Assembly (NCBI GenBank): GCA_951406725.2
Contig: OX597834.1
Coordinates: 19,344,001-19,408,000 of the forward strand
Reading direction: 5' to 3'
Source: Octopus vulgaris
Lineage: Eukaryota
Length of the DNA: 64,000 nucleotides
In this document: piece by piece, positions 5,931 through 58,529 of the stretch
Layout: every line of letters begins with the position of its first letter
How positions within the stretch are numbered: position 1 is the stretch's first letter
Translations under genes and position numbers: made by a program
The notes under the pieces: generated by a model
Databases searched by the model: none
Told to the model about the DNA's origin: nothing
The model's input: the letters and a program-made list of their open reading frames with translations, nothing else

Positions 5931-6525
5931 CTACAAACAAGATATATATGTATATATATCTCCACTATATGTGGAGGCGCAATGGCCCAGTGGTTAGGGC
6001 AGCGGACTCGCGGTCGCAGGATCGCGGTTTCGATCCCCAGACTGGGCATTGTGAGTGTTTATTGAGCGTAAACACCTAAAAAAGCTCCACGACGGTCCGG
6101 CTGCGGGTGGTGATGCCTGCTGTACTCTTTCATCACTCTTTCTCCCATTCTTTCTTCTGTTGGCCTGCTCACTTAGCCAGCGGGGTGGTGTCATTCAAAG
6201 GCTAAAACAATGCGAACGCATTGTGACCAGTGATGTGTAACAACATCTGATGATCTGGTCGGTCATGTGATCACGTGGTTACGTGATATATGTATATATA
6301 AATATGTGTGTGTGTGTCTGTGTTTCTGTGCTTCACAAATGGTGTTGGTCTGTTTATGTCTCTGTAACTTAGCGGTTCAACAAAGTAGACCAATAGAATA
6401 AGTACCAGGCTAAAAAAAAAGAAAAGAATAAATACTGGAATCAATTCATTTAACTAAACTTTCTTCAACGTGATACTCCAGCTTGGCCACAGTCTAATGA
6501 CTGAAACAAGTAAAAGATAAAAGAG
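5528..6525 (+). mobile_element. SINE family A split by insertions in its microsatellite linker
   Basis: Degenerate A head at 5528-5675 (ggttccaggttcagtcccactg...ttgggcaagtgtc) and A tail at ~6305-6525 (gataaaagag end), separated by (TA)n, a unique ~170-bp insert and a family D SINE. Confidence 0.7.
5971..6286 (+). mobile_element. tRNA-derived SINE (family D)
   Basis: tRNA-like head GGAGGCGCAATGGCCCAGTGGTTAGGGCAGCGGACTCGCGGTCG...GGTTTCGATCCCC with A and B boxes, CpG-rich, ending in a repeated CACGTG-like tail. Confidence 0.8.
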
Positions 6526-7011
6526 ACTTCACTTGAAATACACAGCATTTTTAAAAAATGAGTTTTGAGAACAACGAACTGTTCAGTAAGTTAAATTTGT
6601 CATTATTCTGCTTGTGTTTGCAGCATAAATTTACATGGAATTTTGACATACAGTTTTAAAAAAAAGGACCCCTTTTGGTCATGAATGACTATGGGGTTGC
6701 ACCTACAAAGTTCCCCTTCGAGGCAGAAGTCTGGGTAAGGTTGTTTGTGGAAGACCAACAGCCTTTCCTTTTAATGCCACCGATGTTATCCAAGGGAAAG
6801 GCAAAAGCTGATACAGCTTGGCACCACTGATGTCGCAACTCATTTCTACAGCTGAGTGAACTGGAGCAATGTGAAATAAAGCTGATGATCCATCCAAAAA
6901 AACTGAAACCAGTTAAACAAACATTGTTCTTCTATTCTTCCAGTCCTTGTAGTAGTTGTGATTTATGTATCATAAGAAATCTGTTTTAAATAACAAATAT
7001 GCATTGACATT

Positions 7012-7218
7012 GGTAAGCTGGCAGAACTGTTAGGACTTTGGGTAACATGCTTTGTGGCATTTTGCCCATCTTTACATTCTGAGCTCAAATTCCATTGAGA
7101 GTAACCTTCTCTTTCATCCTTTTGGTGTCAATAAATTAAGCACCAGTTATGCACTGGGGTTGATGTAATCGATATCTCCCTCCCCCAAATTTCATGCCTT
7201 GTGCCTATAGTAGAATGG

Positions 7219-7250
<32 letters not shown>

Positions 7251-7531
7251 GGCAGCGAGCTGGCAGAAATGTTAGCATGCCGGGCAAAGTGCTTAGGGGT
7301 ATTTCGTCTGTCTTTTACCTTCTGAGTTCATATTCCACCAAGGTCAACTTTGCCTTTCATCCTTTCGGGGTCAATAAATTAAGTACCAGTTGCCTACTGG
7401 GTTCAATCTAATTGGCTGGCCCCCACCCCCAAAATTTCAGGCCTTGTGCCTAGAGCAGAAAAGCTTATCATCATCATCATTATTATTAATATTATCATCA
7501 TCATCATTATTATTACTACTACTACTACTAC

Positions 7532-7580
<49 letters not shown>
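7012..7580 (+). mobile_element. Two head-to-tail SINE family B copies (B2 tail) with (ATT)n tails
   Basis: Each has gctggcagaa...gagttcaaattcc-like...ctttcatcctt..gg.gtcaataaattaag...ccttgtgccta and ends in ATT/ATC repeats. Confidence 0.85.
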
Positions 7581-7859
7581 ATTACACTCTCCTGCATAAT
7601 AATTTCTCTTTTCTTTGTTTCAATGTTCTGGAGTAAAATTACATGAATGTAATATTGATTTACTCTGGAGATTCTACATATTAATTTCTGTATTTGTTAT
7701 TGCTGATATTTTCCATAGATGTGTAGGCATTATATGGAGTCTGTAAACATGGTTAAGCAGAAGTATTTATGCATAGATAGACAAATGGATCCACTGAGGA
7801 GTGGGGGGGGGACATACTGGTAGGATTTGATGAACAAGCAAACCAGACATACACAAAAA

Positions 7860-7893
7860 TATATAGGTGTATGTATGCATGTATATATGTAGG

Positions 7894-7925
<32 letters not shown>

Positions 7926-8087
7926 TGTATGTATGTATGTATGTATATGTATGTATGTATATGTATGTATGTATGTATGCATGTATATATGTAGGTATAT
8001 GTATGTATGTATATATGTAGGTATATGTATGTATGTATATATGTAGGTGTATGTATGTATGTATGTATGCATGTATATATATGTAGG

Positions 8088-8119
<32 letters not shown>

Positions 8120-8195
8120 TGTATGTAGGTACATGTATATATGTATGTATGTATGTATATATGTATGTATGTATGCCTGTATGTATATATGTATG

Positions 8196-8229
<34 letters not shown>

Positions 8230-8410
8230 TGTATGTATGTATGTATGTATGTATGTATGTATGTATGTAGGTATATGTATGTATATATGTATGCATGTAT
8301 ATATGTATGCATGCCTGTATGTATGTATATATGTATGTCTGTATGTATGTATGTACTATGTATATATGTATGCCTGTATGTATGTATATATGTATGTTTG
8401 TATGTATATA
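7860..8410. repeat. (TATG)n tetranucleotide array
   Basis: Read directly. Confidence 0.95.
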
Positions 8411-8708
8411 CAAGCAGTCATACACTTTGTGTGTTTGACATGCACACACACTTAATATTTGTTTGCTCAAGTGCATACAAACATAGACATATATATGTAC
8501 GTATATGCATTCATGTATGCAAAAATATAGAAACATATATGCATGTGTTTATATGAGTGTGTGAGTAAATATGTATACATATATGAATTCATGTATAGAC
8601 AAATATACGTACATGTATTTATATATAATATAGACAGGGTAATTCATAATGAATGGGTATGTTTTCTTTTTGCATTTATTCTGTACCATTCAATTTGAAT
8701 TACCCTCG

Positions 8709-8967
8709 GTGTGTGTGTGTGTGTCTGTGTGTGTGTGTCTGTGTGTGTGTGTGTGTGTCTGTGTGTGTGTGTGTGTTTCTGTGTGTGTGCGTGTGTGTCT
8801 GTGTGTGTGTGTGTGTGTGTCTGTGTGTGTGTGTCTGTCTGTGAGTTTGTGTGTGTGTGTGTGTTTGTGTGTGTGTGTCTGTGTGTGTGTGTCTCTGTAT
8901 GTGTGTCTCTGTGTGTCTGTGTGTGTATGTGTGTGTGTATGTGCCTGTCTGTGTGTGTGTGTGTGTC

Positions 8968-9007
<40 letters not shown>

Positions 9008-9060
9008 TGTCTGTCTGTGTGTGTGTGTCTGTCTGTGTGTGTGTATCTGTTTGTTTGTAT
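8709..9060. repeat. (TG)n/(TCTG) microsatellite
   Basis: Read directly. Confidence 0.95.
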
Positions 9061-10414
9061 ACACACAACTTCAGATGAAGAGGAAAGCTTGTATGCACAA
9101 CTAGAAATACAAACACACAGTTAGTTGGAGGGTAAAAATTATTCTTACATTGACAGTATTGGTTTAAATATAATGATTTTGTTATGGGGCAATCGTTAAG
9201 AATTTTCACGTTGGTTTTTTTTTTTTATATATTCACATTTTGGTCTATCAAAAAAAAAAAAAATAAGGAACGGAAATAATCTAAATTGATTTATCTTGGA
9301 AAAAATGAATTATCTAATTTTCAAGGAATATCCAGAGGTCTTGCAAAGGAAGTGGAACATTCAATTAAGTGACCGAGCCATTTTTAATTTTCTATTTTCT
9401 TTTTTTCCTTCTTTGTTTTTTTTTCTTTGCCAGAGAAGGAATTGAATAAAATGTTTTCTTTTCTGGATGAATGAGTGGGAAATGGTGATGCAATTTGATA
9501 TTAAAATCTATTTTTCAATTCTATTATCCTGGGGTCAAGATTGCAAATCTTTTTCTGGTAACCTACTAGAGAAATCGAATTTAGAGATGCAGTGAAGTTT
9601 TGATCAGGTTTTAAACTAGCTGAGCAGGCATTTTGGGGATTGAATATTTGAAATATATTAGGAAATGTACATGCATGTATGTATAAATGCATGCATATGT
9701 ATGTGTCTATATTTTTGCATGTATGTATGTGTATATATATATATATATATATATAAATATATATATATATGTATGTACATATATACACATAAGTGTCTAT
9801 ATATATATTCATACATACGTATATATTTACACAAGTATCCACATATGCACACACATTTTATTATAGAGCATGTTTGCATTTAAAATTTTTCTTTACACTT
9901 CTTTTTTCTTCTTGTTTTTTTTTTTTTTTTTTTTGTCTTATTAGCAGTTCTAGCGTTTCATTAATATTGACCTGAAATATATATCGATTTGGAACACAAA
10001 ATTTGTCGTCAATCATAAATTGTGTATATTTACCATTACAGAAGTTTGCACACCGAAGCTGTTACATTTAATGATTAAATCATTCTCAAAACTCTAAACT
10101 CTCCAGATCTGTGATAAAATTTGATCTGAGTTTAATTAATATTTCAGAGTTTCTATCAAATAACTTTATTTATACGCCAACTCAACTGTTTGAAAGCTGG
10201 ACTTAAATTCGTTTCCAGTGCTTTTATCTATCTTTGTGGAAATTATTAGTTTGTGTCGTTTACCTCTAGGTCAAGATACAACAGACATATGAGCAAAGGT
10301 ATTCCAGACATGACCAACCCGTCCTTCTTTCAGGCTATGTGTATCCAGAAGAATATCATTAATTGTATCCCTTCCTTGTTGAAATGGTATTCTTTTATTC
10401 CTTAATTCTTTAAC

Positions 10415-10548
10415 TTGTTTCAGTCATTTGACTGTGGCCATGCTGGAGCACCACTTTATTCAACATGGTCACAGTCAAATGACTGGACTGTGACCATGTT
10501 GACTAAAGGCGGTGCTCCAGCATGGCCACAGTCAAATGACTGAAACAA
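10415..10548. repeat. Palindrome built from SINE-A 3' tails
   Basis: Arms 10415-10476 and 10486-10548 differ by about 3 positions; 9-nt spacer. Confidence 0.85.
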
Positions 10549-10976
10549 CTAAAAGAAATAAAAGAAATTTTTTAACGTCCATTTTCCATGCTAGCATGGT
10601 TTATATATATACACAATGTGCTCCTTTCAGTTTCCATCTACCAAATCCACTCACGAGGCTTTGGTCAGCCTGAGACTATAGTATATATAGTATATATAGA
10701 CTATAGTATATAGACTGTGTATATATATGTATATGATGATGATGATGATCATCATCATTTTTTAATATCCGTTTTCCATGCTAGCATGGGTTATATATAT
10801 ACACAACGGGCTTCTTTCAGTTTCCATCTACCAAATCCACTCACAAGGCTTTGGTCAGCCTGAGACTATAGTAGAAGACTCTTGTGCATGGTGACACACA
10901 GTGGGACTGAACCTGGAACCATGCGATTGGGAAGCAAACTTCTTACCACACAGCCACACCTGTGCCTATGGTAGTA

Positions 10977-11935
10977 TATAATTGGAGGGAAATTTGGTTC
11001 CTCTTACAGTAGTGGTTCTCAACCAGGTTCCAGATGAGCCCTTGAGGTCTATATAAGCCTGGTGGTGGTGGTGGGTCCATATAAGATTTTGTTGTTAAAA
11101 CTTATATGCAATAAACTGGTTGTATGCTTTTACAAAAAAACAAAATATTTTGACAATTTTTATATAACTCAAGGTCAGAATCAAAATCGAAATCGATCAA
11201 CATCAATGGAATTTCTAGCTGTGATACCAGTGCCGAACCATCCGAACGTGGCCGTTGCCAGTGCCCCCCCCCCCCCCGACTGGCCTCCATGCCGGTGGCA
11301 CGTAAAAAACATCTGATCATGGTCGTTGCCAGCCTTGCCTGGCCTCTGTGTCGGTGGCACATAAAAAGTACCATCCGATCATGGCCGTTTGCCAGCCTCG
11401 TCTGGCACCTGTGCTGGTGGCACATAAAAAGCACCCACTACACTCATGGAGTGGTTGGCGTTAGGAAGGGCATCCAGCCGTAGAAACAATGCCAGATCAG
11501 ACTGGGCCTGGTGCAGCCTTCTGGCTTCCCAGACCCCAGTTAAACCGTCGAACCCATGCCAGCATGGAAAGCGGACGCTAAACGATGATGATGATGATGA
11601 TGATGAAGGTGTAGTTAGATAGATTCAATAGATTTCTTTCAGTTTCCATCAACCAAATTCTCTCATGATGCTTTGGTCAGACTGAAGCTAAAGCAGAAGA
11701 CACTTGCTCAAGGTGCCAAACAGAACATTTTACTTTCTGTTACAACTCATTCCTCAGAAAAACAATTCTGGATAAAAGATTTTAAAAAATATTTTTACCC
11801 TGTCATTTGAGCCCAAGCTACTTTTCTTGCTGACCCACCACCACCACCACCAGGCTCATATAGACCCCAAGTGCTCATCTGGACCCTGGTTGAGAACCAC
11901 TACTGAAAGAGGAACCAAATTTCCCTCCAATTATA
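10977..11935. mobile_element. hAT-like MITE ends within a ~100-bp inverted duplication
   Basis: Arms 10977-11077 and 11832-11935 are reverse complements and include TAGTGGTTCTCAACC / GGTTGAGAACCACTA, a Charlie-like terminus. The spacer holds family C and A fragments. Confidence 0.6.
11170..11605 (+). mobile_element. RTE 3'UTR-derived repeat (family C) with internal tandem units
   Basis: Three ggcac(g/a)taaaaa units, ggcgttaggaagggcatccagcc and a (GAT)n tail. Confidence 0.85.
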
Positions 11936-12489
11936 AGCATTACAGTTGATTCATGCGATCAACTTTTGGCTTATTCTTCCCTTCAGTATTTCCCTTATCT
12001 TTCCATTGTCCGAAAATATGTTCTTTATATTTCAGCATTATTCACCTTGTTTGAAATATAAGGCCTCACTTCTCACGCTTCGTTTTGCACTTGCTGCAGC
12101 CTTCTACAAAGCAACCTGTCATCGATGGCCTTTATTTCTTGCTGTTTCTTTTCATCTCTTCCAAACAAACTATCTTGTTGGTTGTCACATCCTAAACATT
12201 TTATTCTTCACAGCCTAACACACTCAAAGCAAACATGTCAAGACAAATGACAGCTGAGAAATGACTAAACATTAAATATCAATTGGAAAAACAAAGTGCG
12301 CCTGTGTGAATAAGCCTTTAAATCGTTCAGTATTTATGATCTTGGCATTTTAAAGATGATAAAAATTTAATTAAAAGATATAAAGAACAGCAACAACTAC
12401 AACAATATCAGCTGCTTCTAATGTAAGTTAACATTTCAGTAACAGATATCAAATGTTATAATGTCATTCCGTTAATAAATCAAAATGTT

Positions 12490-12635
12490 CAGCTTGCTAA
12501 CCAACCACATGGTTCCGGGTTCAGTCCCACTGCGTGGCATCTTGGGCAAGTGTCTTCTGCTATAGCCCCGGGCCGACCAACGCCTTGTGAGTGGATTTGG
12601 TAGACGGAAACTGAAAGAAGCCTGTCGTATATATG

Positions 12636-17892: not shown

Positions 17893-18437
17893 AGGTGCAG
17901 GATTGGGTGTGTGGTAAGAAACTTGCATTCCAGCCACATGGTTCCAGGTTCAGTCCCACTGCATGACATTTTGGGTAAGTATCTTCTACTATAGCCCCAG
18001 ACTGACCAAAGCCTTGTGAGTGAATTTGGTATACGGAAATTGAAAGAAGCCCGTCACATATTTATATATGTATATATGTATTTGTGTGTCTGTGTTTGTC
18101 CTGGGGTTGATTTGTTTGACTAAAGTCAGTATTCCAGCATGGCCACAATCAAACGACTGAAAAAAGAAAAAGAATAAAAGAATATATATATGTGTGTGTG
18201 TATGTGTGTGTGTGTGTCTGTGTTTGTCCCCCCCCCCCCACCACCACCACCATCGCTTGACAACTGATGCTGGTGTGTTTATGTCCCTGTAACTTAACAG
18301 CTCAGCAAAAGTGACTGATAGAATAAGTACTAGGCTTACAAAGAATAAGTCCTGGGGCGGGAGTCGATTTGTTCGACTAAAAGGTGGTGCTCCAGCATGG
18401 CTGCAATCAAATGACTGAAACAAGTAAAAGAATAAAA
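17893..18437 (+). mobile_element. SINE family A with duplicated 3' half
   Basis: Head 17893-18055, internally deleted tail to ~18180, second full tail ~18190-18437. Confidence 0.85.
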
Positions 18438-18462
18438 ACGAATTTCTTTTTTTCTTTTTTTT

Positions 18463-18866
18463 TCTTTTTACTTGTTTCAGTCATTTGACTGTGGCCATGC
18501 TGGAGCACCGCCTTTAGTCGAGCAAATCGACCCCGGGACTTATTCTTTGTAAGCCCAGTACTTATTCTATTGGTCTCTTTTGCCAAACCGCTAAGTGATG
18601 GGGACGTAAACACACCAGCATCGGTTGTCAAGCAATGCTAGGGGGACAAACACAGACACACAAACACACACACACACACATATATATATATAGACATATA
18701 TATGACGGTCTTCTTCCAGTTTCCGCCTACCAAATCCACTCACAAGGCATTGGTCGGCCCGGGGCTATAGCAGAAGACACTTGCCCAAGATGCCACGCAG
18801 TGGGACTGAACCCAGAACCATGTGGTTGGTAAACAAGCTACTTACCACACAGCCACTCCTGCACCT
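18463..18866 (-). mobile_element. SINE family A, full length
   Basis: Near-consensus reverse-complement copy (cttgtttcagtcatttgactg...cagccactcctgcacc). Confidence 0.9.
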
Positions 18867-20150: not shown

Positions 20151-20625
20151 TGCGCGGCACAGCCTTGAAGAATTTTAATTGAATGAATCGATCTCAGTCC
20201 TGTTTCTTTTTATTTCTTTTTACGCCTGGTACATATTCCATTGGTTTCTTTTGCTGAACCACTGAGTCATGAGGGATGTAAACACATCAACACTGATAGT
20301 CAAGTGGTTGTGGGGACAAGCTGAGACACAAATACACACACGCATATGCTTGCACACCTTTTAGTTTCTGTCAATCAAATTCACTCAAAAGGCTTTGGTC
20401 AGCCTGAGGCTATAGTAGCAGACACTTGCCCAAGATGCCATGTAGTGGGACTGAACCTAGAACCATGTGGTTAAGAAGCAAACTTCTTATCACGCAGCCA
20501 TACACATATGCATGTATATGTGTGTGTGTGTGTGTATAGGTGAAATTTACAGATAAACAAAAGATAAAGACAGTTGTATGAACAAACAGGTGTATTTGTT
20601 TGACACTCGGGAAAGTGAAAAAGTA

Positions 20626-21057
20626 GAGCGTAGGCGAGAAAGATATGCCATAATATACATCTGGAAGATCCTAGAAGGACTTGTCCCAAACTTTGGCATC
20701 GAGAGTTACACAAATGCCAGAACTGGGCGCCACTGCATAGTGCCAAGGATGTAGGACAAGATACTGTGATAGCCTGGGCTTCCGAGGCCCACAGCTCTTC
20801 AATATCCTCCCGAAGAACCTAAGAGACCTGCATGGGGTGGATGCAGATGTCTTTAAAATGAAACTGGATCTCTTTTTGTCAGGTGTACCAGATGAACCAA
20901 CTTCATGGCAGGAGGAGCAGATTAGGGCATGCACCAGATGGCATTTGCTAAAAAGCATTCATGAAGTAAAATCATGTAGCAACACCAAATGGCGGTGCCC
21001 CAGCATGGCCACAGCTTGTGAGCTGAAACTAAATAAAATAAAATAAATAAATAAAAT
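20626..21057 (+). mobile_element. CR1-group LINE ORF2 C-terminus and 3' tail (5'-truncated)
   Basis: Translates ERRRERYAIIYIWKILEGLVPNFG...GPQLFNILPKNLRDLHGVDADVFKMKLDLFLSGVPDEP with a frameshift. Tail ggcggtgccccagcatggccacagcttgtgagctgaaac plus (TAAAA)n. Confidence 0.8.
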
Positions 21058-21149: not shown

Positions 21150-21317
21150 ATTAAGGGCATAAAAAAGTTTTTCCACATTATATACTGAAGGTAGACACTA
21201 AATCATCTCACCACTTTAAAAGCCACAAGAATTTTTGTGATTTTGAAAGTGGTGAGACGATTTAATGTCTGTCTTCAGCATATAGGCTAGAAAAAAATAT
21301 TTTCCTATGCCCTTAAT
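21150..21317. repeat. Imperfect spacerless palindrome
   Basis: attaagggcata...cacaaga|ttttgtg...tatgcccttaat; the arms differ mainly by transitions. Confidence 0.75.
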
Positions 21318-22507: not shown

Positions 22508-22922
22508 AGGTGGCGAGCTGGCAGAAACGTTAGCACGCCAGGCGAAATGCATAGTGGTATTTCGTCTGCTGCTACGTTCAGAGTTCAAATTCCGTCAAGG
22601 TCGACTTTGCCTTTCATCCTTTCGGTGTCGATTAAATAAGTACCAGTTACGCACTGGAGTCAATATAATCGACTTAATCCGTTTGTCTGTCCTTGTTTGT
22701 CCTCTCTGTGTTTAGCTCCCTTGTGGGTAGTAAAGAAATAGGTATTTCATCTGCCACTACGTTCTGAGTTCAAATTCTGCCGAGGTCAACTTTGCCTTTC
22801 ATCCTTTCGGGGTCGATTAAATAAGTACCGGTTACGCACTGGGGTCGATATAATCGACCTAATCTGTTTGTCCTTGTTTGTTCCCTCTGTGTGTACCCCC
22901 TTGTGGGCAATAAAGAAATAAA
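22508..22922 (+). mobile_element. SINE family B followed directly by a 5'-truncated second copy
   Basis: Full copy 22508-22742; the second copy starts at the shared ggtattt microhomology. Confidence 0.9.
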
Positions 22923-28560: not shown

Positions 28561-28609
28561 ACCCGAATGTCAAACTATAGACCTGCTTGTTGTTCATACA
28601 CCTGTCTTA

Positions 28610-34111: not shown

Positions 34112-34147
<36 letters not shown>

Positions 34148-34354
34148 GTGACCGCGTGTGTACCGTTGGCAATTTTTTTTTCCTCTGTCTTCCCTTCTCT
34201 GGATCTTTCCTTCTCCTATGTTTCCGACGAAGAGCTCCGCTCGAAACGTTAAACCCTCCTTCTTTCCTTCTTTCCTGAGCGTCCAATAATACTATATTTG
34301 TTCCACGTCCTCGCGTTGTTGTGTTTTTTTGTGCTTTCATGTTTGGATTAACTT
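34148..34354 (+). mobile_element. Penelope pLTR-like / retrozyme-like short element inside (TA)n
   Basis: ~205-bp CpG-retaining unit with (TA)n on both sides and a central hammerhead-like fold. Confidence 0.65.
34220..34254 (+). ncRNA. Minimal type-I hammerhead ribozyme-like motif, U4C variant
   Basis: GTTT-CCGACGA-A-GAGC(TCC)GCTC-GAAA-CG-TT-AAAC: stem I GUUU/AAAC, stem II GAGC/GCUC, palindromic ACGU in place of stem III, GUU cleavage triplet. Confidence 0.65.
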
Positions 34355-34385
34355 TATATATATATATATATATATTGATAGACAA

Positions 34386-43993: not shown

Positions 43994-44731
43994 AAAAGCA
44001 CTGGTGGGGTTGCCATATAAAAAGCATGTGATGGTGCCACATAAAAAGCACTGGTGCTGGTGCCATGTCAAAAACACTGGTGCTGGTGCCATGTAAAAAG
44101 CACATGTGATGGTGCCACATAAAAAGCACTGGTGCTGGTGCCATGTCAAAAACACTGGTGCTGGTGCCATGTAAAAAACAATGGTGCTGGTGCCATGTAA
44201 AAAGCACATGTGATGGTGCCACATAAAAAGCACTGGTGCTGGTGCCATGTCAAAAACACTGGTGCTGGTGCCATGTAAAAATGGTGCACAATGGTGCTGG
44301 TGCCATGTAAAAAGCACATGTGATGGTGCCACATAAAAAGCACTGGTGCTGGTGCCATGTCAAAAACACTGGTGCTGGTGCCATGTAAAAAACAATGGTG
44401 CTGGTGCCATGTAAAAAGCACATGTGATGGTGCCACATAAAAAGCACTGGTGCTGGTGCCATGTCAAAAACACTGGTGCTGGTGCCATGTCAAAAACACT
44501 GGTGCTGGTGCCATGTAAAAAGCACATGTGATGGTGCCACATAAAAAGCACTGGTACTGGTGCCATGTAAAAAGCAAAGGTGCTGGTGCCATGTAAAAAG
44601 CATGTGATGGTGCCACATAAAAAGCACTGGTGCTGGTGCCATGTCAAAAACACATGTGATGGTGCCACATAAAAAGCAGTGGTGCTGGTGCCATGTAAAA
44701 AGCAGTGGTGCTGGTGCCACATTGAAAGTAC
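43994..44731 (+). repeat. 26-bp minisatellite (~28 units) with 78/104-bp higher-order structure
   Basis: Variants gtgatggtgccacataaaaagcactg, gtgctggtgccatgtcaaaaacactg, gtgctggtgccatgtaaaaagcacat and gtgctggtgccatgtaaaaaacaatg recur in fixed order. A family C tail follows to ~44860. Confidence 0.92.
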
Positions 44732-45736: not shown

Positions 45737-45992
45737 GTAGTGAAATAATATATTGATTGACAACTTCCAGCCTGTTGTTAATTAGGGGCCCTAGTCTGTC
45801 TATGAGGATAGATTCCTTAATTCTTAGATTACCCAAATTGCTATCATTGGCCTCAGTTGTGACTGTTATGCTTTTGTCGGTGTTCTGGCATCCGTCTAGA
45901 TGCTTTCTGAAGGAAAAGGCTCTCATGTTCAGATGTTCTTTGATGCGAATGTGTAATGGTCTTGTTGTGCTACCCACATAGAACTTGTTGCA
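45735..45992 (-). pseudogene. Penelope-like retroelement GIY-YIG endonuclease fragment
   Basis: CNKFYVGSTTRPLHIRIKEH...FRKH...LRIKESILIDRLGPLINN carries the YIG-like YVG and the catalytic R, E and N motifs. The GIY strand and RT are absent, and the fragment abuts (TA)n. Confidence 0.85.
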
Positions 45993-53211: not shown

Positions 53212-53869
53212 CTAATTTGCTTCCCTCTCTCCTCAAAAGCAGCTGGCTCTGTGCCAGATTTTGAAATCATCATCATCTCTTTTTTGCTATGGAATTATCT
53301 TCATTCCGTTTACAGCACAGCCAGTCACTTATTTACATTATCAACTCTTTAGCTCTATTTATATATCTTCATAAAAAACACTTTCCATTTCTTCTCTGGT
53401 GAAAGATCCTACCTGAATCATTAGAAATTTCTATCTATTCACAGTTCACAAACTCATTCAGTTTTGTGAATGTTATTCAATAGTTTTTTGTTGACAGAGA
53501 TCAGCACTAGTTTTTACTGACTTGAGTGTTTTTCCTTCTGAATGGTAGTTTGTCGAATGAAGACTATTTAGCCTTGATACTCATTTGTCTTTAGTAAGAT
53601 TCAGTACAACAAACATTAATACTTATTTGCTGTAAACAACCCATTAAAAGCTATATTTTCCTTCACTCGTGCACTTCTCATTTTCTCTTATCATTTTGCA
53701 TTCAACTTCATATTAATATCATTGTTTTTAATTATGTACCATATTTAATATCCCATAAGAAGTAATTTTTTTTCTCTTAAAAATGTCTCAGAAAAACGAT
53801 TCCAAGTCCTGTATGCAAAGTTGGGCCTATATTACATACTTTAATGCACCAAAAACATTTTTCCTGAAT

Positions 53870-54237
53870 GGCACGTAAAAAGCACCATCCGATCATGTCC
53901 GTTGCCAGCCTCGCCTGGCCCCTGTGCTGGTGGCACGTAAAAAGCACCATCCGATCGTGTCCATTGCCAGCCTCGCCTGGCACCTGTGTCAGTGGCACAT
54001 AAAAAGCACCATCCAACCATGGCCGTTTGCCAGCTCCATCTGGCAACTGTGCCGGTGGCACGTAAAAAGCACTCACTACACTCACGGAGTGGTTAGCGTT
54101 AGGAAGGGCATCCAGCCGTAGAAACATTGCCAGATCAGACTGGGCCTGGTGCAGCCTTCTGGCTTCCCAGACCCCAGTTGAACCGTCCAACCCATGCTAG
54201 CATGGAAAGTGGACGCTAAATGATGATGATGATGATG
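53870..54237 (+). mobile_element. RTE 3'UTR-derived repeat (family C) with ~60-bp internal tandem units
   Basis: Four ggcac(g/a)taaaaagcac units about 62 bp apart; (GAT)n tail. Confidence 0.88.
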
Positions 54238-58344: not shown

Positions 58345-58529
58345 TTATATATGTATATATATATATATATGTATATATTTATATATGTATATATTTATAT
58401 ATGTATATATATATACATACATACAAAAGCATACTGGGAGAAAGGAAAGAAACGAAACGACGCGAGGGCGCTCAGACATACAATAATGTAATAAATAAAA
58501 TATATGCATACATACATACATATATGTAC

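What the first reader, a model, noticed from the sequence alone, without database searches (positions are those of the whole stretch)
34148..34354. Retrozyme-sized element in (TA)n with a U4C hammerhead
Seen: a ~205-bp unit with a complete minimal hammerhead geometry, including an extra A after the core and palindromic ACGU, but CCGACGA in place of CUGANGA. Related downstream segments appear at ~20540-20625(-), ~28562-28608(+) and ~58422-58500(-), each beside a TA/TG microsatellite. Established: Penelope pLTRs and non-LTR retrozymes carry such motifs, and retrozymes can form circular RNAs. Inference: a microsatellite-targeted Penelope-derived family with a non-canonical core.
Basis: partly seen in the sequence, partly recalled or inferred. 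Interest (0 to 1): 0.7.

Follow-up and report, generated by a model that had tools for sequence, protein, structure and literature searches.

The report
Abundant Penelope-type repeat, C4-core hammerhead
A 207-base stretch set between two TA microsatellites is one copy of a very abundant repeat, likely the tail of a Penelope-like jumping gene in an octopus, and most of its family share a hammerhead-ribozyme motif with C in place of the usual U at core position 4, a change that would likely slow self-cutting, though cutting is untested.

Summary
The motif is real. 34220-34254(+) fits the minimal type I hammerhead of Penelope-like elements (PLEs) at every position but C4, and it is the window's only hit (0.02-0.13 expected by chance). 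It belongs to a very abundant family: 5,987-12,524 contigs laid in each of three runs. C4 is not private: U4 makes up only 22-27% of summed depth, whereas a site private to this copy reads 96-98% 'other'. Family 5' ends abut (TA)n. Tandem joins are rare (3 contigs), and no cleavage, circle or transcript is shown, so 'retrozyme' is not supported. The three 'related segments' are not shown to be family members. U4C is a known natural variant (a viroid). I confirmed that it recurs in phage hammerheads: 60 of 91 CCGA(U/C)GA matches close into hammerheads, against 1 of 28 for A4/G4. The scan noted U4C before in phages and in a Euglena repeat. New here: C4 as the majority core of a high-copy animal PLE-type family, which I did not find in the papers searched. 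The autonomous partner is unidentified. Verdict: new variant of a known kind.

The parts
34148..34354 (+). One monomeric copy of a very abundant ~210-nt repeat (likely a PLE 3'-terminal repeat unit); U/C-rich sense strand (T 88, C 55, G 35, A 29); family alignments begin at 34146
34220..34254 (+). Minimal type I hammerhead motif: stem I 34220-23/34251-54, core 34224-30, extra A 34231, stem II 34232-42, GAAA 34243-46, palindromic ACGU 34246-49, U17 34250
   Evidence: compared with the consensus in the PMC4209133 supplement
34225..34225 (+). Core position 4 = C; T makes up 26.9, 24.0 and 22.4% of summed contig depth in X9, X3 and X7
34250..34251 (+). Predicted cleavage site (after GUU); untested
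   Evidence: hammerhead numbering applied; inference
34128..34147 (.). 5' flank (AT)10, preceded by (AC)8; other copies show (TA)n plus TTCAAA ahead of 34146
   Evidence: table 7 (29, 45 and 52 contigs)
34355..34374 (.). 3' flank (TA)10, followed by a (GATA)n run to 34456
   Evidence: depth in the last bin is 43-52% of the bin before
45737..45992 (-). Remnant of the C-terminal GIY-YIG endonuclease of a Penelope-like element, running into (TA)n; 11 kb away and not shown to belong to this family

Best explanation
This is one copy of a very abundant short repeat carrying a minimal hammerhead motif whose position 4 is C in most of the family; it is likely the 3'-terminal repeat of a Penelope-like retroelement, likely copied into (TA)n runs by that element's reverse transcriptase and GIY-YIG endonuclease, and its ribozyme would likely cut only slowly and only as a dimer. 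Shown: the motif, the abundance, the C4 majority, TA flanks, few tandem joins, and PLE endonuclease relics in the same window. Inferred: (1) an RNA bearing the unit is made, by read-through or from a parent element; (2) a PLE protein nicks (TA)n and primes reverse transcription from the 3' end; (3) copying often ends near 34146, either because the ~210-nt unit is itself the template (non-autonomous) or because it is a truncation hot spot of a longer element, which I could not tell apart; (4) with only a 2-bp helix III, cleavage at 34250/34251 needs two motifs pairing through ACGU, and C4 weakens the U-turn further, so a single-copy RNA would stay whole. The family amplified with C4, so efficient self-cleavage is likely not needed for its spread.
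For: The architecture matches the published PLE minimal-hammerhead consensus (U-rich flank, CUGANGAH, G10.1-C11.1, palindrome, NUH) except at position 4. 24 of the 44 alignment rows seen in that supplement have the same GAAA-C-G-U-H junction and 12 have U17. The motif starts ~130 nt from the 3' end, as in PLE 3' termini (e.g. Hydra-1_oBim, motif at 2403 of 2507). 18 of 24 listed runs, under four coded organism labels, hold 81-100% of the 16 sampled words (two are flagged as a possible source). Contigs laid: 5,987, 6,903 and 12,524. T at 34225 is 22-27%, while the private-site control 34171 reads 96-98% other. T4 is not plain CpG decay: of 12 CpGs only two others are listed, at 2-5%, and G5>A is not listed. 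No other core position varies at >=4%, and the one stem I variant (34254 C>T, 9-12%) keeps a G-U pair. The best-supported 5' loose ends are (TA)n. (TA)n preference is documented for PLE clades including octopus families (PMC8557442). The monomer folds into core-sequestering hairpins rather than the active form. U4C lowers activity in vitro yet supports viroid infectivity (Perreault 2011, passage). Mutants of the CUGA turn showed low activity in pairwise mutagenesis (PMC9901934, passage). In viral contigs C4 is the one substitution at position 4 that recurs in closed hammerheads: 46 of 57 CCGAUGA and 14 of 34 CCGACGA, against 1 of 28 for A4/G4 and 3 of 31 for C4 with A6 changed.
Against: No contig or protein links the unit to a PLE ORF. 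Searches for one found nothing, and five motifs of the unit are absent from the held text of the Craig 2021 supplement, which includes octopus Naiad and Hydra consensus sequences (line breaks could hide a match). The share at 34225 comes from summed depths of short, overlapping contigs laid on a C4 reference, which favours common and reference letters, so 73-78% may overstate C4. The only raw-read run (X21) laid 53 reads, of which about 2 are genuine, so there is no copy number or read-level share. Constraint on the motif is not demonstrated (2 of 35 positions variable inside, 13 of 148 outside, Fisher p=0.74). Transcription is not shown (X9 is only guessed to be RNA). No activity data exist. 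No target-site duplication can be read in TA runs.
Confidence: 0.65

Rival explanations
1. The ribozyme is dead and irrelevant: one master copy acquired C4 by chance and amplified, so C4 is a hitch-hiker with no tuning role.
For: No measurable excess conservation inside the motif. PLEs without hammerheads (Naiads) amplify well (PMC8557442). 8 of 9 Xenopus retrozyme dimers did not cleave (Li et al. preprint). Weak stems and competing folds.
Against: The only two common variants in the motif are the canonical U4 and a wobble-keeping change. C is the substitution that natural hammerheads tolerate at this position.
Confidence: 0.3
2. It is a true non-LTR retrozyme: tandem arrays elsewhere give multimeric RNA that self-cleaves and circularises, and this is a stray monomer.
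For: Size lies in the 170-400 nt range (PMC7229834). One head-to-tail join, 34329 to 34150, in X9 (1 contig, depth 17.4). Monomers are common in retrozyme families.
Against: Only 3 backward joins among 25,414 laid contigs, at depth 3-17 against 1e5 at the termini. Best-supported 5' flanks are (TA)n. The fold is not stable (z +0.5), unlike the highly self-paired retrozyme circles. The motif is the minimal PLE type.
Confidence: 0.12
3. C4 marks one large young subfamily, but canonical U4 masters (under-counted because they diverge from this reference) drive the family and need cleavage.
For: T4 is present at 22-27%. Several other sites vary at ~17-21% (34181, 34200, 34297), as a linked subfamily would. 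Laying on a C4 reference is biased.
Against: The same share in three runs under three organism labels. Small runs hold 81-88% of this copy's words.
Confidence: 0.15
4. The motif is a chance match in a pyrimidine-rich repeat.
For: The stems are only 4 bp. No Rfam hit.
Against: Chance rate 0.02-0.13 per window without counting the extra A, G10.1-C11.1 and the palindrome. About a quarter of family depth has the exact canonical core.
Confidence: 0.02

Closest known systems
Minimal type I hammerheads of metazoan Penelope-like elements (Cervera and De la Pena 2014, PMC4209133)
   Same: Short helix I, extra base after A9, G10.1-C11.1, palindromic 15.2-16.2 with no loop, U-rich flank; mostly dispersed single motifs from truncated elements
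   Different: Position 4 is C in most of this family. 0 of the 44 rows seen in that alignment have C4 (CCGA occurs twice in the file, both outside cores). The core variant reported there is U3-A8. Helix II is 4 bp rather than the frequent 6-8.
(TA)n-inserting PLE clades (Hydra, Naiad; microsatellite bias also noted for Neptune), including octopus Hydra-1_Obim (Craig et al. 2021, PMC8557442)
   Same: Insertion in (TA)n; hammerhead near the 3' end; 5'-truncated copies
   Different: The Hydra-1_oBim hammerhead has a different sequence, a CUGA core and a longer helix III. 0 of 34 rows in its File S2 have C4. No ORF is tied to this family.
Animal non-LTR retrozymes (Cervera and De la Pena 2020, PMC7229834; Li et al. 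2026 preprint 10.64898/2026.07.22.740005)
   Same: Size, non-coding, type I hammerhead, likely PLE origin
   Different: Tandem arrays rare here, no stable self-paired fold, no circular RNA shown
Natural U4C hammerheads (viroid variant cited by Perreault et al. 2011, PMC3088659; phage hammerheads)
   Same: Same substitution; the exact core CCGACGA closes into hammerheads in 14 of 34 viral matches
   Different: There it is a minority (about 60 closed matches against roughly 1,700 estimated canonical stretches), in self-contained motifs. Here it is the majority state, in a motif predicted to need a dimer.

Membership tests
PLE minimal type I hammerhead | Helix I of 2-7 bp and helix II closed by G10.1-C11.1 | tested here: met
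PLE minimal type I hammerhead | Extra nucleotide after A9; palindromic 15.2-16.2; NUH triplet | tested here: met
   A34231, ACGU, GUU
PLE minimal type I hammerhead | CUGANGA core | tested here: not met
   CCGACGA here and in ~73-78% of family depth; canonical in 22-27%, so a variant of the family
PLE minimal type I hammerhead | Self-cleavage as a dimer | not testable with these tools
   needs an in vitro assay
Penelope-like element terminus (pLTR / 3' end) | Contiguity or homology with an RT + GIY-YIG ORF element | tested here: inconclusive
   No genome held; no linked ORF found; an unlinked PLE endonuclease remnant lies in the window
Penelope-like element terminus (pLTR / 3' end) | Dispersed high-copy repeat with insertion bias for microsatellites | tested here: met
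   tables 1, 2, 7
Penelope-like element terminus (pLTR / 3' end) | Partial tandem and 5'-truncated structure | tested here: inconclusive
   3 backward joins; depth higher at the motif than at the 5' end, but summed contig depth is not a copy count
Non-LTR retrozyme | Tandem repeats, two or more units each with a hammerhead | tested here: not met
   Monomer here; 1 head-to-tail contig among 25,414 laid; contigs drop rare forms
Non-LTR retrozyme | Highly self-paired monomer | tested here: not met
   MFE -26.3 versus shuffles -28.0 +/- 3.4, z +0.5 (linear fold)
Non-LTR retrozyme | Expressed as circular RNA | not testable with these tools
   No raw RNA run offered
Hydra clade PLE | Endonuclease lacking CCHH; hammerhead with a 3-4 bp helix III | tested here: inconclusive
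   No ORF tied to the unit; helix III shorter than in Hydra rows; relatives of the window's endonuclease remnant keep CxxC and two His and so do not look like Hydra

The most novel reading that the evidence does not exclude
A short non-autonomous Penelope-derived element flooded an octopus genome because it de-tuned its own ribozyme. C4 slows self-cleavage so the single-unit RNA stays whole for reverse transcription, and the C4 lineage outran its U4 sister. That would be a natural paired experiment showing that PLE hammerhead activity is selected downwards in parasites of PLEs.
Probability: 0.2. Interest if true: 0.7.

Novelty: new variant of a known kind. Interest (0 to 1): 0.42.

Why it matters
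[quoted passage not shown] A high-copy family in which a weakened core (C4) and the canonical core (U4) coexist at about 3:1 lets one compare activity, age and copy number between sister lineages. It also means CUGANGA-only descriptors miss most copies of this family. If C4 is merely a hitch-hiker, the finding is an ordinary transposon tail with a footnote.

Tried and rejected
The own genome is not held, so no copy-level alignment, tree or covariation test was possible. Pattern scans for the family in metagenome, viral and prokaryotic collections found 0 matches each. The search for DNA around relatives of the endonuclease remnant found 404 pattern matches and none confirmed. Searches with a translated frame of the unit, meant to sample other copies as predicted proteins, found nothing. 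Raw-read run X21 was uninformative: 51 of 53 laid reads are under 90% alike, and its loose ends contain no C, as a base-converted library would give (inference). I dropped the 7 of 23 variant rows driven by these reads. The idea that C7 compensates for C4 (lead from e1-7359238) is not supported in viral motifs: about 14 per 500 with C7 against 46 per 1,200 with U7 (denominators are the tool's estimates). CpG decay as the source of T4 was rejected. Folding with C4 versus U4 gave no active monomer in either case. Searches used a misplaced ambiguity letter; 83 mostly repeated the canonical set and 86 served as the C4 + non-A6 control. Luense 2017, Ambros and Flores 1998 and Arkhipova 2017 are not held.

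Full report
Setting. The window is a microsatellite-rich, 27-44% GC animal sequence. It is likely from an octopus: the best protein match to a transposon remnant in it is an Octopus bimaculoides entry at 77% identity. This is an inference; no genome is held.

The motif. 34220-34254(+) reads GUUU CCGACGA A GAGC UCC GCUC GAAA C G U U AAAC. That gives a 4-bp helix I, core C3-C4-G5-A6-C7-G8-A9, an extra A, and a 4-bp helix II closed by G10.1-C11.1. GAAA is followed by the palindrome ACGU with no loop, then U17, so the predicted cut is 34250/34251. A descriptor scan found this as the only hit on both strands. Shuffled windows gave 0.007 (canonical), 0.02 (position 4 free) and 0.13 (any one mismatch) hits per window over 150 shuffles. 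Rfam does not detect it. The published consensus of PLE minimal hammerheads matches in every respect but position 4, and 24 of 44 rows seen share the GAAA-C-G-U-H junction. The unit sits between (AT)10 and (TA)10.

The family. I laid 4 runs at >=80% likeness. X9, X3 and X7 gave 5,987, 6,903 and 12,524 contigs, so the family is very abundant, though summed contig depth is not a copy number. X21 (raw reads) gave about 2 genuine reads and was set aside, with 7 of 23 variant rows. At 34225, T makes up 26.9, 24.0 and 22.4% of depth. At 34171, where this copy is private, the other letter makes up 98.0, 96.5 and 95.8%. So C4 is shared, and on this measure it is the majority. The measure favours common and reference letters, so the exact share is soft. 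T4 is not simple CpG decay: only two of the other 11 CpGs are listed, at 2-5%, and G5>A is not listed. No other core base varies at >=4%; 34254 C>T keeps a G-U pair in helix I. Against over-reading, variable sites are not significantly rarer inside the motif (2 of 35) than outside (13 of 148; p=0.74). CpG observed/expected is 1.29 in the unit and 0.40 in the window, consistent with a young or unmethylated family (inference).

Ends and tandems. The best-supported 5' loose ends, at 34146, are (TA)n followed by TTCAAA (29, 45 and 52 contigs; agreement 0.5-0.57; 417 further loose-end rows were not shown). This copy lacks those few bases. At the 3' end 43-52% of depth runs on into the TA bases. Three contigs of 25,414 show backward joins; one (X9, depth 17.4) is head-to-tail. 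No pile-up of starts is listed at 34251. The 207-mer folds no better than shuffles (z +0.5). Transcription is not shown, since X9 is only guessed to be RNA. The tandem and self-paired criteria for non-LTR retrozymes are thus not met; circles could not be tested.

The three 'related segments'. They are not detected by BLAST or nhmmer with the unit. Pairwise p values are 0.014, 0.76 and 0.015, at scores that unrelated tiles reach. Two of them are copies of another family.

Partner. No ORF is linked to the unit. A PLE endonuclease remnant ending in (TA)n lies 11 kb away. Its relatives include RT + GIY-YIG proteins, which shows that such elements exist in this genome, not that they moved this unit. 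Octopus PLE families with (TA)n preference are in print, and 31 recently active Penelope-like families were counted in O. vulgaris. The family may therefore already sit in a repeat library that I could not see.

What C4 does. Perreault 2011 states that the U4C variant considerably decreases activity in vitro yet permits viroid infectivity, and that U4 contacts the phosphate between A6 and N7. Pairwise mutagenesis found low activity for CUGA-turn mutants other than the 3-8 swap. Earlier notes of this scan said U4C recurs in phages, and I tested that. In viral contigs, with stem II anchored as GTC...GAC, matches closing into a hammerhead were 113 of 120 (CUGAUGA) and 111 of 125 (CUGACGA), both capped samples. 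For the C4 cores they were 46 of 57 (CCGAUGA), 14 of 34 (CCGACGA) and 2 of 14 (CCGAGGA). Controls gave 1 of 28 (A4/G4) and 3 of 31 (C4 with A6 changed). Counts are stretches, not independent lineages; distinct closed contexts number 37 and 11. So C is the tolerated substitute at position 4, normally at a few percent, with no sign of coupling to C7. In this unit the monomer is predicted to misfold with either letter, and PLE minimal motifs cleave weakly even as dimers.

Mechanism. Most likely a PLE 3'-terminal unit, copied by target-primed reverse transcription into (TA)n, whose hammerhead would cut slowly, only in pairs, and is not needed at full strength for spread (0.65). Rivals: dead hitch-hiker motif (0.3, overlapping in part), U4 masters under-counted (0.15), true retrozyme (0.12), chance (0.02).

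Novelty. I found no report of C4 as the main core of an animal PLE family. Searches run: hammerhead + U4C (1 paper); hammerhead + CCGAUGA/CCGANGA/CCGACGA/CCGAAGA/'U4 to C' (1 paper, on influenza, not read); hammerhead + octopus or cephalopod; and two supplements (0 of 44 and 0 of 34 rows). The library lacks most subscription papers. Luense et al. 2017, which I recall reports many PLE-linked variants, could not be read and may bear on this, as may file 1 of the 2014 supplement and the closed preprint supplements.

What I saw of each paper. PMC4209133: parts 1-2 of 4, supplement file 2 part 2 and a search. PMC8557442: passages, section 11, supplement part 2 and searches. PMC7229834: parts 2-3 of 6. 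Li et al. preprint: parts 1-3 of 5. PMC3088659: passages and section 8. PMC13282606: parts 1-2 of 3, supplement not read. PMC9901934, PMC6765202, PMC8967140, PMC6466107, PMC3907566: passages only. Ambros and Flores 1998, Luense 2017, Arkhipova 2017: nothing beyond citations. Hammerhead numbering and the target-primed mechanism rest on my own knowledge.

Verdict. Real motif, real and very abundant family, C4 shared by most of it; a new variant of a known kind; interest 0.42.

Noticed in passing
window 45737-45992 (-): GIY-YIG endonuclease remnant of a Penelope-like element (Pfam PF01541 E 0.0066, below cut-off; 77% identical to an Octopus bimaculoides protein; longer relatives carry RT + GIY-YIG). 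It ends at the ORF's last codons directly in (TA)n, with no 3' UTR. Relatives have a Cys linker and a C-terminal CCHH-type endonuclease, Nematis/Neptune-like by Craig's criteria (not tested by tree).
   Followed up: partly
table 7, place 34146: Many copies carry TTCAAA between (TA)n and the start seen here. Read in frame with the following ATGTGA, this could be the last codons and stop of a parent ORF (relatives of the remnant end in similar hydrophobic residues), which would make the 5' boundary a microhomology hot spot. Speculative and untested.
   Followed up: no
window 20539-20631 (-) and 28561-28608 (+): Two short copies of another microsatellite-flanked repeat, related to each other and only weakly to the 3' half of this unit; possibly a sister PLE-tail family cut short of its hammerhead.
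   Followed up: partly
window 58422-58500 (-): TA-flanked segment sharing CTGAGCG and an 11-of-12 match with 34309-34320; relationship not significant at window scale.
   Followed up: partly
window 18366-18529: Long near-perfect inverted repeat formed by two opposed copies of a common SINE-like repeat (spurious Rfam MIR841 hit); another hairpin at 21183-21280.
   Followed up: no
window 20741-21046 (+): Open frame resembling the C-terminal end of a LINE ORF2 (resemblance recalled, not searched).
   Followed up: no
window 43994-44719, 53869-54072, 11280-11431, 22556-22920: Tandem arrays of 26, 62, 63 and 185 bp units built from dispersed repeats.
   Followed up: no
viral loci (e.g. L067, L110): U4C hammerheads recur in viral contigs (37 distinct closed contexts with U7, 11 with C7), whereas A4/G4 almost never close.
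   Followed up: yes
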